Part shown: piece by piece, positions 14,618-35,840 of the stretch | Numbering within the stretch: the stretch's first letter is position 1 | How the letters are laid out: each line of letters starts with the position of its first letter | Assembly (NCBI GenBank): GCA_951406725.2 | Contig: OX597828.1 | Span: 29,264,001-29,328,000, forward strand | Direction of reading: 5' to 3' | Source: Octopus vulgaris | Lineage: Eukaryota | Length of the DNA: 64,000 bases | Program-made: the position numbers and the translations under genes | The notes under the pieces: model-generated | Told to the model about the DNA's origin: nothing | Database searches by the model: none | What the model saw: only the letters and a program-made list of their open reading frames with translations

Positions 14618-17605
14618 ATATATATATATATATATATGTATATAAAATATATAAATACGGAGAAAAAGAGAGAAAGAAAGAGAAAGAAAGAAAGAAAGAA
14701 AGAGAGAAAGAGAGAGAGAGAGAGAGAGAGAGAGCATATTTTGATGGTCAAATCAGATAAACCAAGATGTCGTCATTTTTTTTTTTTCTCAAGCGACGCT
14801 ATAGTTTAGATGGAGAAAATATGCAGCAATGGATAACGAAGGACCCTCTGCACCAGGGATTCTTAACCATTTTTTTTTTATCTACGGACTCCTTTGATTA
14901 CTATTTTAATCTTGTGGATCCCCATAGCCATTCGATGTTTAAAAACTAGTTTTATAGAAACTGCTTTCAAAATTCCTATTTTGCTTTTCCCTCCATTCAC
15001 TTGTGGAGGTTGAACGAAGTAAAATGTTAGAGAAGGAAACCGGATCTTTTCGGTTTGAACGGCAGTTTTTAGCATAATTTCTAGGTAACTAAAAAAATGT
15101 TAAACTTCGTTTACTGGTAGAATGTGTTTATAAAACATCTTTTTCTCTTGGCTTTATTGAGAAAATTCTATAGTTTGTAAGATATTTGTTGTTTTTTTTC
15201 TTCAATTTCTGCAATTTCAACCAATCAATGACGTCTATTGCGGTGAAAACATTCTGTGCCGTATGACTATGTCCCTCGGTTAAGAAACAGATTGGGTTTA
15301 TTTACATTTCTGAAGAAAAAAAGATACCCTTCCCCCCACCGCTAACCGGATCTTTTCTTTTTGAAAGCCAGATTTTCCTAGTTAACTAAACAATTTGAAA
15401 CTTCGTATACTGGTAGAATGTGTCAAAAGAAAACATAATTGTAAACCAAAATGAAAACGGAATTGTAATTTCTAAGTTTAACGTTGTTTAATAATTCGAA
15501 TTTTAACCAATGGTATTCTTTCTTTCGACCTCATATTATTTACTGCCTCTCAAAATATTGTTACTGTGACGTAAACAGCTATTTTGTGACGTAGTTAACG
15601 TAAACATGTAAATAGCTAACTAAAATGTAAACATCTCCGCTTATCATAAACTTCGTGGAGTATATATAAAATTTGTGTAGATCCTAAATAGCTACACACA
15701 CACATGTATACAAACATATGCATATATATATATATATATATATATATATATATATATATATATATATATATATATATATACACACCTATACACACATATT
15801 CTAATGCATATGCATATATGTGTATATATTTATAGATGCATACATTATATATATATATAAAAGATGTTTACATACAATATATATATGTTATATACATCTA
15901 CATGTATATGTATGTATGAATATATAAGTACCACAGAATTTGGATCAAACTGTTTTGATCCATACATACACACACACACCAACACTACCATCCATGAGAC
16001 ATCCTAACATAATCAATGCTACTACTACTATCATCATCATTATCATCATCATCCACTGCCGCCACCACCACCACCTCTACAAAAACACCAACACTATAAT
16101 TGCTGCCATCATACACATCCACTGTCACCACCACCACCACTGCCATGATAACCACATCTACCACAGCTGTTTGCTTACTGCTTACCCACTCACAAAATAG
16201 CTATCTACGTCACATTAACACTATGCAGCTAATAATTTCAAATGGAAACAGAAAATATGATTGGTTAAGGATAGAATAAGTACTGGGCTTACAAAAAGAA
16301 TAAGTCCCGGGGTCGAGTTGCTCGATTAAAGGCGAGGCTCCAGCATGGCCGCGGTCAAGAGTAACATTAAAAGTAAAATATGTTTTATACGACACATTAG
16401 GGTTAGGGTTAGTGTCCGAAGGTTGAAAGTGTTTAGTTACAAAAAATATATTTCTCGATCTGCCGTTGAAAGGGTAAAGATCCCTTATATTATTTATTTA
16501 AACCCTTTACAAACTAGAAGGGTTATGGGTCAAGAGGAAAATACATCAATCAAATGTTGGGAAGGCCATCGGTTGAATAAAACAACATTGTTCCTCAACA
16601 GAACAATAAGGCTCTATAGTTAGGGGGAAATTTACCCATTCAGTTTCAAAACTCAGGTGGAGCCAAAAGAGGTCTCTACACATACATACGTATACACACA
16701 CACACATACATACATATATCCAGACAACTTCAGCTTATATATATATATATATTATATATATATATATATATATATATATATATATATATATATATATATA
16801 CCGCTTGGATCGCTTTCAATGCCACTACATCCCGTCCGATTCGCTCCAAAATTTACAGGGACATGTAGAATGTAGGTAGCCCACGATGCTCGTGGGCTAC
16901 CTTAGAAATCCCTATCTTAAAAGGTGTGGTTGTTAGGGGCCATCTTCCTCACTCACGCTATTTCCTCCAGTACCCTCTCACTCCCCTTCATGTATAACTT
17001 TGATAAGTCCACTACCGTTATTTAAAGTATCTGTCACTCTCGCTATTTCCTCTCTTTTTCACTCACTCTGTTTCTTACCTTCCCATTACATCGGCGTTCT
17101 TTTACGTATCTGTCTGTCACCAACAACACACGAGCATGAGAACAAATATTATGAATCAGATATTCTTGCGTTCATTTATATGTATGTGTGTGTATGTGTG
17201 TTCTATATATAAATATGTATATATAATGTATATATACAAAGTGTATATATCTGTATTTATGTATATTAAACTTTTTCATAGTTATATATATTTTTAAACA
17301 AATTATAAATATAATTTAATAATTTTTATTTTCAATATTATATTTTTTTTAATGTTTTTGTTTTTTCACTGTTTGATTTGCCTAAAAATTCCATTTTTTC
17401 ACTTTTATGATTATACCCAGAGTGCTCTAATCGAATATGAACTGTCTTCCCATTGGCGGACGTTTGTCTTTTTTATTTTTGAAACAAACACATTGGCTCT
17501 TTTGTTTTAAAACAATACTACCTTAATACTCCAACAAACAAAACATCACCCACTCTCATTCTTTTATGTATCTGAGAATGTGTGCCTGTCTGTCTGTGTG
17601 TTTCC

Positions 17606-33839: not shown

Positions 33840-35840
33840 TAAACTCAAAGAGCAACTAGAAAGTGAAAGTAGTATCTAACTTAGGATGTCTCATAGATAG
33901 TGGTGGCAATGGTGTTGGAGGTGGTACATGTGGTTATCATGGCAGTGGTGGTGGTGGTGGTGTAGTGGTGACAGTGGATGTGTATGATGGCAGCAATTAT
34001 AGTGTTGGTGTTTTTGTAGAGGTGGTGGTGGTGGCGGCGGCAGTGGATGATAATGATAATGATGATGATAGTAGTAGTAGCATTGATTATATTAGGATAT
34101 CTCATGGATGGTAGTGTTGAAGACATTGCAGAGTGTAGTGGTGGTGAAATTGGTGATTTTGAATATGATGCTGGTATTGATCTTGGGGTTGTGGTTGCAG
34201 AAGATGGTTGTGGTGGTGGCAGTGGAGGTTGTAGTAATGGTTGTAGTGGTGGTTGTGAAGATGATTCTGATATTGATAGTCTTTGCATTGAGGTGGTGGC
34301 AGAGTCAGAGTAAATAATAAGAGCCCAGTTAACACAAGATTCTTAAATTTCGGAGATCATAAGATAGAGAGCAAGAAGTTAAAAGTTCCAATACTGGCCC
34401 AATACCTACACCCCAGATTCTTCAACTATTTTATAAGAAAGGGGTTAATGGCAGGATAGGGATTCAGCTTTAAGATAAATTGTATAACAAAAAATACATA
34501 AATAAATTACTGCTCCAACGATGTAATTTTAGTATGTGTGTGTGTGTAAGCAATGCAAACAATGGAAAATAATTTAAACACTCATTTTCTGATGTCTAAG
34601 GATGGATATTTATGCGTATGAATCTTTTTCTTTTTATTTTCTTTCAAATATAATTCTAGGGAACTGAAAAAGCTGTATACGGTGCCAAGCGAATTTAGCT
34701 ATTTACGATGAGCGGATGTTTACGTTACAAACGAATCTCTAGGTCTGTTTACATGTTTACGTTAACTACGTCACAAAATAGCTGTTTACGTCACAGTAAC
34801 AATATTTTGAGAGGCAGTAAATAATATGAGGTCGAAAGAAAGAATACCATTGGTTAAAATTCGAATTATTAAACAACGTTAAACTTAGAAATTACAATTC
34901 CGTTTTCATTTTGGTTTACAATTATGTTTTCTTTTGACACATTCTACCAGTATACGAAGTTTCAAATTGTTTAGTTAACTAGGAAAATCTGGCCTTCAAA
35001 CTGAAAAGATTCCGCTAACCTAACCCTAACCCTAACTAATCCTAACTTTAACCCTAACCCTAAAACAGATTGAAATGCAATAGATCAATACTAGGGTCAT
35101 AATTATGGGTGACAATTTCATATGACACCGCTAGAAAAAACTGCCGTTCAAACCGAAAAGATCCCTATTTTGTTATATGGACACCTAAAAATCTTATATG
35201 GACTCTCAGGGGCCATGTGGACCCCAGTTGAAAACCACTGCTCTACACGGTCGCTTGAACGGTTAGAACTAGCAGCCTCATCTCCCTTAAATCACGTAAT
35301 CTCATCTTAAATAAAGATTTTCACTGGCGAGTGTAGATACCGAGAAACAACAACAACAACAAAAACCAAAAAAACAAACAAAAAAAAACAAAAAAGGAAA
35401 AAAGATGTAATGGTCACATATGGAACGCTTTGATCAAGTCATAAGTTTGTTCGATTAGGGCCGAACTGAGGTTAAGCATCATCATCGTCATCATCATCAT
35501 CATCATCACTATCATCATTATCGTCGTCGTCGTCGACATCATCATTATCATCGTCAACAACAACAACAACAACAGAAGCAACAACAATAACAACAACAAC
35601 ATCGTTTATAACTGAAATAATTCACAGATTTTTATGTTTTGTGTCTAAAGCTCGAGAAGCAACGCATACTTTTTTGTTTATGATTCAACCAGTGAGTTTC
35701 GCGATTCATCAACCTTCCAGGCACAACAGCCAAATCTTCCGCCAACCACACACGACTATGTGAAACAGAGGAAGGAAATATTCCTTCATACAGTTCTGGA
35801 GGCCCATAACCTGAAAAGGAAAAAGAAAAAAATAACAATA

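What the first reader, a model, noticed from the sequence alone, without database searches (positions are those of the whole stretch)
15348..35012. A 19.7-kb cargo-carrying TIR transposon with no visible transposase
Seen: 265-bp terminal inverted repeats (15348-15612, 34748-35012) that are identical over the inner ~245 bp, and an exact 8-bp TSD CGCTAACC directly outside both ends. Known: GG-initial TIRs with 8-9-bp TSDs are typical of the Merlin/IS1016 superfamily (MULEs are the main alternative), and such elements are usually a few kb. Inferred: the ends look young while some contents look old (an RTE LINE full of stops and frameshifts whose TSD has 4 mismatches in 75 bp, and decayed SINEs). 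The element may therefore have moved already loaded with genomic DNA, acting as a giant Pack-type vehicle that shuttles retroelements, Helitrons and ribozyme-bearing foldbacks.
Basis: partly seen in the sequence, partly recalled or inferred. Interest (0 to 1): 0.85.

Follow-up and report, generated by a model that had tools for sequence, protein, structure and literature searches.

The report
Giant junk-carrying DNA transposon family
This 19.7-kb stretch is one of dozens of copies of an oversized jumping element (5 to 66 kb) that has no transposase gene of its own, was copied around the genome together with dead mobile DNA already inside it, and likely arose when two small elements began moving as a pair with the DNA between them.

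Summary
Observation confirmed: 265-bp TIRs (4 mismatches in the first 19 bases, then identical) and an 8-bp TSD, inserted into a 450-bp related MITE. It is not a one-off. Listed ends form 49 inward-facing pairs, 41 of them at least 5 kb (median 17 kb). 16 of 23 copies checked have an exact 8-bp TSD, each different, one of them 65.6 kb. Copies share a collinear backbone of decayed TEs that differs between copies by 1-2%, like the ends. The RTE's stops and 3 of its 4 TSD mismatches are shared, so the cargo was dead before amplification: the element moved loaded. Both arms resemble free 1.1-1.6-kb MITEs, which suggests a composite origin. Corrections: no host-gene cargo, so not Pack-type; the hammerhead-like foldback and a missed Tx1/L1 fragment are private to this copy. 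No transposase was found in any copy and no autonomous partner was found, so Merlin membership rests on ends and TSD alone. It is a new variant of composite/macro-transposons, notable for size and copy number in an animal.

The parts
15340..15347 (+). Left copy of the 8-bp target-site duplication (CGCTAACC)
15348..15612 (+). Left TIR, 265 bp, starts GG
   Evidence: 40 of 40 scored genome candidates match at 98-100%
15348..16268 (+). Left arm, equal to most of a free 1.1-kb MITE; its inner TIR, kept in 6 other copies, is lost here in a ~2-kb deletion at 16268/16270
   Evidence: L156: 1,117 bp, own 8-bp TSD, 93% to 15348-16268
16400..16483 (-). Relic end of an older GGATC-type element with a TTAGGG tract, part of the shared backbone
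17625..18496 (.). (CGGTT)n array, 174 copies, private to this copy, at the junction where the middle of the backbone is missing
18497..21158 (-). L1/Tx1-type retrotransposon fragment (ORF1 with CCHC knuckle, ORF2 endonuclease half), cut at both ends, private; at a site where other copies carry other L1s
   Evidence: clade label from recalled motifs
21600..24455 (+). Dead RTE-type LINE with ~75-bp flanking direct repeat, shared backbone
   Evidence: (RVT_1); RTE label recalled
24760..26088 (+). Helitron-like non-autonomous element (3' hairpin + CTAG; 5' end not resolved), shared backbone
   Evidence: (9 copies, 1.3% mean divergence)
26756..26991 (.). SINE, shared backbone
   Evidence: 1.3% among 10 family copies, 80-93% identity to 15 other SINE matches in the window
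27755..28155 (-). Helitron-like element (A|TC ... CTAG|T), shared backbone
29087..30238 (.). SINE plus 863-bp foldback with a hammerhead-like core in each arm; private later insertion in a (TA)n tract
33445..33841 (-). Helitron-like element (A|TC ... CTAG|T), shared backbone
33921..35012 (-). Right arm, 86% identical over ~1.05 kb to a free 1.3-kb MITE
   Evidence: L128
34748..35012 (-). Right TIR; terminal GG reads GA in this copy
35013..35020 (+). Right copy of the 8-bp target-site duplication
15042..15347 (+). Left part of the host MITE (related GGATC-ended family that makes 8-bp TSDs)
35021..35164 (+). Right part of the host MITE

Best explanation
It is one copy of a dispersed family of large DNA transposons that carry no transposase and were copied with their dead-TE cargo already inside, likely formed as a composite of two inverted ~1.1-1.6-kb MITEs and likely moved by a Merlin-type transposase supplied from elsewhere. 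Shown: family, size range, 8-bp TSDs, shared collinear cargo, cargo older than the amplification. Inferred steps: (1) two related GGATC-ended MITEs lay inverted about 30 kb or more apart in TE-rich DNA; (2) a DDE transposase acting in trans used the two outer ends and moved the whole block; (3) the block amplified to at least some 40 copies in at least two subfamilies; (4) copies lost internal segments, probably during gap repair, and gained private insertions. This copy lost much of the middle, gained an L1 fragment, a (CGGTT)n array, a SINE and a foldback, and landed in another MITE of the same clan. Its right-end GG>GA change may have immobilised it (untested). My odds: family moved loaded 0.92; composite-of-MITEs origin 0.7; Merlin-type enzyme 0.6.
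For: 128 exact hits of an inner-TIR 31-mer, control 0. 170 listed ends give 49 inward-facing pairs within 70 kb against about 0.2 by chance; 41 are 5 kb or more. Exact 8-bp TSD in 14 of 21 copies read in full, all different, plus 2 of 2 pairs checked by their ends, 8.5 and 65.6 kb. 74% of this copy is covered by collinear matches in other copies. Mean pairwise divergence: cargo 1.1-2.1% in 10 of 11 inner and arm segments, TIRs 1.7-2.4%. Three of four RTE-TSD mismatches are shared by all 6 copies holding both repeats. The RTE frame break at 23345 is in 6 of 6 copies and the stops at 22716 and 23537 in 5 of 6. Distances in the middle track those of the right arm (Mantel rho 0.82, p 0.007, n 8), and left tracks right (0.46, p 0.003, n 13). 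Free short elements equal the arms: L156 92% to a whole left arm with its own 8-bp TSD; L128 86% to the right arm; L013 has pieces of both. GG ends, 24-462-bp TIRs and 8-9-bp TSDs are the Merlin description in PMC8101967 (passages). Merlin ORFs with open frames exist in this genome.
Against: 7 of 21 copies lack an exact 8-bp TSD: one has 9 bp, one 6 of 8, two none, and three have a truncated left TIR whose outer end I did not resolve. No autonomous element with these ends was found. The one promising case, a related TIR 3 kb from a Merlin ORF, proved to be a neighbour: that Merlin has its own different ends. The donor locus was not found; one candidate was a rearranged interior. Short elements could be derived from the giant rather than ancestral to it. 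Two Mantel comparisons were not significant (p 0.11, n 5; p 0.08, n 4), and most tree forks are unsupported. One segment (33445-33841) showed 4.3% divergence, perhaps from picking paralogous Helitrons. 72 of 170 listed ends are unpaired, and three of the lists were cut at 100 rows. The 65.6-kb copy's interior was not read.
Confidence: 0.75

Rival explanations
1. Bloated derivative of a single, once autonomous element: one element accumulated nested TEs inside, lost its transposase and kept moving; the short MITEs are its deletion products, not its parents.
For: A Merlin family here is 9-11 kb and carries a LINE shared by 4 copies, so bloating of single elements happens in this genome. Short TSD-flanked derivatives of 0.3-1.6 kb exist.
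Against: No transposase relic of an 8-bp-TSD superfamily in shared ORFs, and a Merlin tblastn against 21 copies gave nothing. The left arm ends in its own inner, older TIR, like a complete MITE, in 6 copies. L128 joins right-arm sequence to that same inner TIR.
Confidence: 0.2
2. Same structure, but the mobilising enzyme is not Merlin (MULE, hAT, P, Zisupton or another 8-bp-TSD superfamily).
For: The Merlin families whose ends I resolved start GGCAC or GGCRATG, not GGATC. MULE (66 matches) and hAT (150 scored of 803) ORFs exist in the genome.
Against: No such TIR near 30 of 30 MULE loci within about 1.5 kb each side. No hAT hit falls inside a listed pair (coordinates compared by eye). TSDs are nearly all 8 bp, whereas 9-11 bp is usual for MULEs and CA/TA ends for hAT and P (recalled).
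Confidence: 0.3
3. A short MITE into which the contents inserted one by one at this locus, or an assembly or gene-conversion artefact.
For: About a quarter of this copy is private.
Against: The same order of the same dead insertions, with shared mutations, on many chromosomes with different TSDs. Left and right TIRs keep family-wide differences, so they were not homogenised here. The empty-site MITE is intact.
Confidence: 0.03

Closest known systems
Maize Ac/Ds macrotransposons (PMC9910405, passages read)
   Same: Ends of separate elements move 10-28 kb of intervening DNA as one unit, with 8-bp TSDs; they can gain copies.
   Different: hAT system; rare events in genetic lines, not a fixed family of dozens of dispersed copies with a shared decayed backbone; cargo there includes gene regulatory DNA.
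Ising's TE of Drosophila, bounded by foldback elements (as described in review PMC6431247, passages)
   Same: Composite unit: DNA between two TIR elements moves together in an animal.
   Different: Hundreds of kb, carries genes, followed in laboratory stocks; here 5-66 kb of gene-free TE debris fixed at many sites.
Xenopus Tx1D/Tx1L (Tx1L targets the DNA transposon Tx1D: passages in PMC6719617 and PMC1950540; original papers not held)
   Same: A DNA transposon family with a site repeatedly occupied by L1/Tx1-type retrotransposons.
   Different: Sequence-specific targeting is not shown here. That Tx1D is a ~15-kb non-autonomous element with 4-bp TSD is recalled, not read.
Pack-MULEs / Pack-TYPE elements (PMC6431247, passages)
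   Same: Non-autonomous TIR elements carrying captured DNA, moved in trans.
   Different: Those carry host gene fragments and are mostly 1-2 kb, none over 7 kb in the cited study; here no host-gene domain was found and the median is 17 kb.
Merlin superfamily (PMC8101967, passages)
   Same: GG termini, TIR within 24-462 bp, 8-bp TSD.
   Different: No transposase inside, no partner with these ends found, and far larger than the families in the passages I read (one given as 2.57 kb).

Membership tests
Merlin / IS1016-IS1595 | Terminal 5'-GG-3' | tested here: met
   29 of 30 ends start GG; the exception is this copy's right end (GA).
Merlin / IS1016-IS1595 | 8- or 9-bp TSD | tested here: met
   16 exact 8-bp and one 9-bp among 23 copies checked.
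Merlin / IS1016-IS1595 | TIR length 24-462 bp | tested here: met
   265 bp; range from PMC8101967.
Merlin / IS1016-IS1595 | DDE_Tnp_IS1595 transposase inside the element | tested here: not met
   tblastn against 21 copies empty; no PF12762 in 12 selected ORFs other than the control Merlin or in 150 shared ORFs. Expected for a non-autonomous element.
Merlin / IS1016-IS1595 | Autonomous Merlin partner sharing these ends | tested here: inconclusive
   Not found at 20 loci (about 3.3 kb each) and 19 wider loci, 4 overlapping; only 150 of 476 candidates were scored.
MULE | MULE transposase (PF10551) between the same TIRs | tested here: inconclusive
   No such TIR at 30 of 66 MULE matches, short flanks only.
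hAT | hAT transposase (PF05699) between the same TIRs | tested here: inconclusive
   None of 150 scored hits lies inside a listed pair, by coordinates only; flanks not read.
Pack-TYPE elements | Captured host gene fragments | tested here: not met
   Above Pfam cut-off only Pif1 2B (read as Helitron), RVT_1 and Transposase_1 in 150 of 158 shared ORF clusters. Short exons or UTRs under 55 codons would be missed.
Composite / macro-transposons | Both ends supplied by separate copies of a smaller element | tested here: met
   Arms match free 1.1-1.6-kb elements; inner TIR kept on the left in 6 copies. The inner end on the right is absent and the direction of descent is inferred.
Composite / macro-transposons | Whole unit moves and makes one TSD pair | tested here: met
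   Different 8-bp TSDs outside outer ends with a shared interior.
Composite / macro-transposons | Donor locus with the captured DNA identifiable | tested here: inconclusive
   Three candidate stretches read; one rearranged interior, one interior ending early, one unrelated.
Penelope-type minimal hammerhead ribozyme (foldback) | Conserved core with G10.1-C11.1 pair and self-cleavage | tested here: inconclusive
   Core letters present, no G-C closing pair by eye against PMC4209133 (passages), Rfam 0, folding z -0.01; cleavage not testable.

The most novel reading that the evidence does not exclude
A Merlin-type transposase in this animal routinely moves 15-65-kb blocks: pairs of its very abundant MITEs (over 11,000 ends of one family) act as interchangeable handles that turn stretches of chromosome into amplifying composite transposons. 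One such block became a family of its own and a recurrent landing site for L1/Tx1 retrotransposons. This would be an unrecognised route to dispersed segmental duplication in cephalopod-type genomes and a natural large-cargo vector.
Probability: 0.3. Interest if true: 0.8.

Novelty: new variant of a known kind. Interest (0 to 1): 0.58.

Why it matters
Cut-and-paste transposition is said to fall off above about 6 kb of cargo (PMC6431247), yet this family reached at least 41 copies of 5 kb or more, median 17 kb, one bounded at 65.6 kb. It shows TIR transposition duplicating whole blocks of junk DNA, multiplying dead LINEs, SINEs and Helitrons without their own activity. Repeat annotation would split such copies into dozens of unrelated hits and could misread the passengers as young. 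If the enzyme is found, it is a candidate large-cargo tool. The cargo holds no recognisable host gene, so direct effects on host biology are not shown.

Tried and rejected
1) A TIR 87% like ours at G000:C1:7800912, beside a 308-aa Merlin ORF, first looked like the autonomous partner. Rejected: that Merlin family has its own GGCRATG ends and TSD, and the TIR belongs to a neighbouring ~1.2-kb MITE type. 2) Single related TIR ends near four other Merlin ORFs (L166, L167, L169, L173) had no partner end within 8 kb; not counted as evidence. 3) MULE and hAT searches gave no link. P and Zisupton families were not searched. 4) Reads: 20 runs hold part of the right end, no RNA holder listed. 5) Rfam at gathering score: 0. 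6) Donor-locus check inconclusive. 7) Earlier scan notes: nothing by place or sequence; 8 word matches in other genomes, none used. 8) Literature: ten searches listed no description of this family. The octopus repeat-annotation paper PMC13282606 (parts 1-2 of 3 read; supplement searched, 0 hits for the TIR tip, 'composite', 'nested', 'giant') does not describe it, but its consensus library is on Zenodo and Repbase/Dfam are not searchable here, so the family or its MITEs may already be catalogued. Three papers were not held. 9) One search's row for the window picked the host TIR as left end and was discarded in favour.
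Full report
OBSERVATION. The ends are as described. The 265-bp TIRs differ at positions 2, 11, 12 and 19 and nowhere else, and CGCTAACC lies directly outside both. The element sits in a smaller relative. Window 15042-15347 plus 35021-35164 gives a 450-bp MITE that aligns end to end with an intact 441-bp copy. 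The TSD carries a base (G) that this intact copy lacks, in both TSD copies, so it is a true duplication and not a chance match in the telomere-like tract. The host family has 11,066 exact matches of its 29-base tip. Of 21 end pairs found in 30 of its loci, 11 had exact 8-bp TSDs, one 9 bp and five 7 of 8. The window is G000:C15:29264001-29328000 of a 2.8-Gb genome. The repeat style suggests an octopus; that is recalled, not tested.

FAMILY. A 31-base piece of the inner TIR has 128 exact matches, control 0. Pooling ends (lists partly cut at 100 rows; only ends that completed a pair were added) gave 170 ends and 49 inward-facing pairs within 70 kb, against about 0.2 by chance. Eight pairs are under 2 kb and 41 are 5 kb or more, median 17.2 kb, largest 65.6 kb; 72 ends stayed unpaired. 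I read 20 pairs in full, chosen with sizes up to 32 kb. With the window, 14 of 21 have an exact 8-bp TSD, all different. One has 9 bp, one matches 6 of 8, two have none, and three have a left TIR cut by another GGATC-type end that I did not resolve. Two more pairs checked by their end loci, 8,523 and 65,572 bp, both have exact 8-bp TSDs.

IT MOVED LOADED. The copies share one backbone in the same order, each lacking different parts. 74% of the window copy is covered by collinear matches in other copies, 72.5% by three or more. Mean pairwise divergence is 1.1-2.1% for the RTE, Helitron, SINE, spacer and arm segments and 1.7-2.4% for the TIRs; one Helitron segment gave 4.3%. The backbone SINE is 1.3% divergent among 10 family copies but only 80-93% identical to 15 other SINE matches in the window. 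Three of the four mismatches in the RTE's flanking repeat are shared by all 6 copies that hold both repeats; the fourth is private. The RTE frame break at 23345 is in 6 of 6 copies, and the stops at 22716 and 23537 in 5 of 6. Distances in the middle correlate with those in the right arm (rho 0.82, p 0.007, n 8), and left with right (0.46, p 0.003, n 13); two smaller comparisons were not significant, and the trees support only a split into two subfamilies. So the cargo was old and broken before the amplification and was inherited with the ends. With the octopus rate of 0.0036 per site per million years used in PMC13282606, the amplification dates to roughly 1.5-3 million years; this assumes the host and the rate. 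A 35-base spacer 8.7 kb inside the right end has 21 exact matches, 15 of them near a listed family end by eye. A 691-bp inner segment matched 40 of 40 scored candidates at 97-100%.

WHAT IS PRIVATE. 17625-21158 holds an 872-bp (CGGTT)n array and an L1/Tx1-type fragment (Pfam endonuclease; a CCHC knuckle just under cut-off), replacing about 15-18 kb that the longest copies have. The SINE and foldback at 29087-30238 are absent from the other copies that keep both flanks, and the foldback occurs in 1 of 21 copies. Its hammerhead-like core is present in both arms but has no Rfam support and no unusual folding energy. It was not shuttled by the element as far as these copies show.

ORIGIN. Both arms resemble free small elements with the same young TIR. 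L156 (1,117 bp, own 8-bp TSD) is 92% identical to a whole left arm. L128 (1,285 bp, no TSD) is 86% identical to the right arm over about 1.05 kb and ends in the left arm's inner TIR. L013 (1,593 bp, 9-bp TSD by eye) has pieces of both. Six copies keep an older inner TIR about 1.1 kb from the left end; the window lost it in a ~2-kb deletion. The simplest reading is a composite: two inverted MITEs whose outer ends moved the DNA between them. The direction is inferred, because short elements could also be cut out of the giant, and the donor locus was not found.

ENZYME. No copy encodes a candidate. A Merlin transposase found nothing in 21 copies by tblastn. Of 158 ORF clusters shared by two or more copies, 150 were scanned; above cut-off were only Pif1 2B, RVT_1 and a mariner Transposase_1 fragment. 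No host-gene domain passed, so 'Pack-type' is not met. The genome has Merlin (150 scored of 476), MULE (66) and hAT (150 scored of 803) matches; none falls inside a listed pair by eye. The one apparent partner was rejected. GG ends, a 265-bp TIR and 8-bp TSDs fit the Merlin description in PMC8101967, so Merlin is the best guess at about 0.6, not a tested membership. A Merlin family with different ends is 9-11 kb and carries a LINE in 4 copies, which shows that Merlins here can move enlarged, LINE-loaded units.

COMPARISON AND NOVELTY. It works like maize Ac macrotransposons (10-28 kb; PMC9910405, passages) and Ising's foldback-bounded TE (review PMC6431247, parts 2 and 4 and passages). It recalls Xenopus Tx1D as a DNA transposon hosting Tx1 elements. 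It differs in being a fixed, dispersed family of dozens of gene-free copies with one decayed backbone. Ten literature searches listed no description of it (see Tried and rejected), but Repbase, Dfam and a deposited octopus library could not be searched. Reads gave no verdict.

VERDICT. Real; a new variant of composite/macro-transposons; interest 0.58. The size and the proof of loaded transposition are the surprise. The lack of host genes and of an identified enzyme limit it.

Noticed in passing
G000:C16:~25033340-25042390 (L208+L157); also L209+L158, L207+L159, L160: Merlin family of 9-11 kb with long tandem-repeat-containing TIRs starting GGCRATG, an 8-bp TSD (GAAACTTT) in one copy, an open 308-aa transposase, and an antisense LINE (843-aa ORF in two copies) shared by 4 copies; two copies are 98.6-99.8% identical, so it is likely young.
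   Followed up: partly
window 21158 and the same site in C6:4.90 Mb, C3:93.38 Mb, C4:124.82 Mb, C2:184.80 Mb copies: L1/Tx1-type insertions of several different families sit at nearly the same internal site; empty in the C3:12.42 Mb copy; one has a 24-bp TSD. Two copies share one insertion at 95%. Possible target preference, as with Xenopus Tx1L in Tx1D.
   Followed up: partly
G000:C4:29914636-29980207: 65,572-bp span bounded by left- and right-type ends and an exact 8-bp TSD; interior not read.
   Followed up: no
window 17625-18496: A 174-copy, 99% pure (CGGTT)n array sits exactly at the deletion junction between the left arm and the L1 ORF2, and in none of the other 20 copies; it may have been made during repair.
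   Followed up: no
C2:184.80 Mb, C3:12.42 Mb, C15:33.95 Mb copies (L037-L039, L042-L045, L073-L076): The left TIR is cut at the same point and abuts another GGATC-type end; two copies share the same added sequence and the third has a ~34-bp mini inverted repeat, suggesting ends can be replaced by new MITEs.
   Followed up: no
C4:124.82 Mb copy, near the site of window 29000-30234: An ORF resembling a Penelope GIY-YIG endonuclease (label recalled) lies in the same (TA)n region where the window has its hammerhead-like foldback.
   Followed up: no
window 41029-41182: A second, shorter foldback of the same hammerhead-like repeat outside the element.
   Followed up: no
window 40185-40831: Broken mariner transposase outside the element (HTH_48, Transposase_1); the only Pfam hits among 68 flank ORFs scanned.
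   Followed up: no
L176 585-3578 (G000:C1:33.77 Mb): A 3-kb GG-ended element with 213-bp TIRs, 8-9-bp TSD and no evident transposase ORF, nested in a host-family MITE.
   Followed up: partly
G000:C3:65.59-65.61 Mb: Two inverted copies of the family's interior face each other; the one junction read stops at window position 33274, without the right arm.
   Followed up: partly
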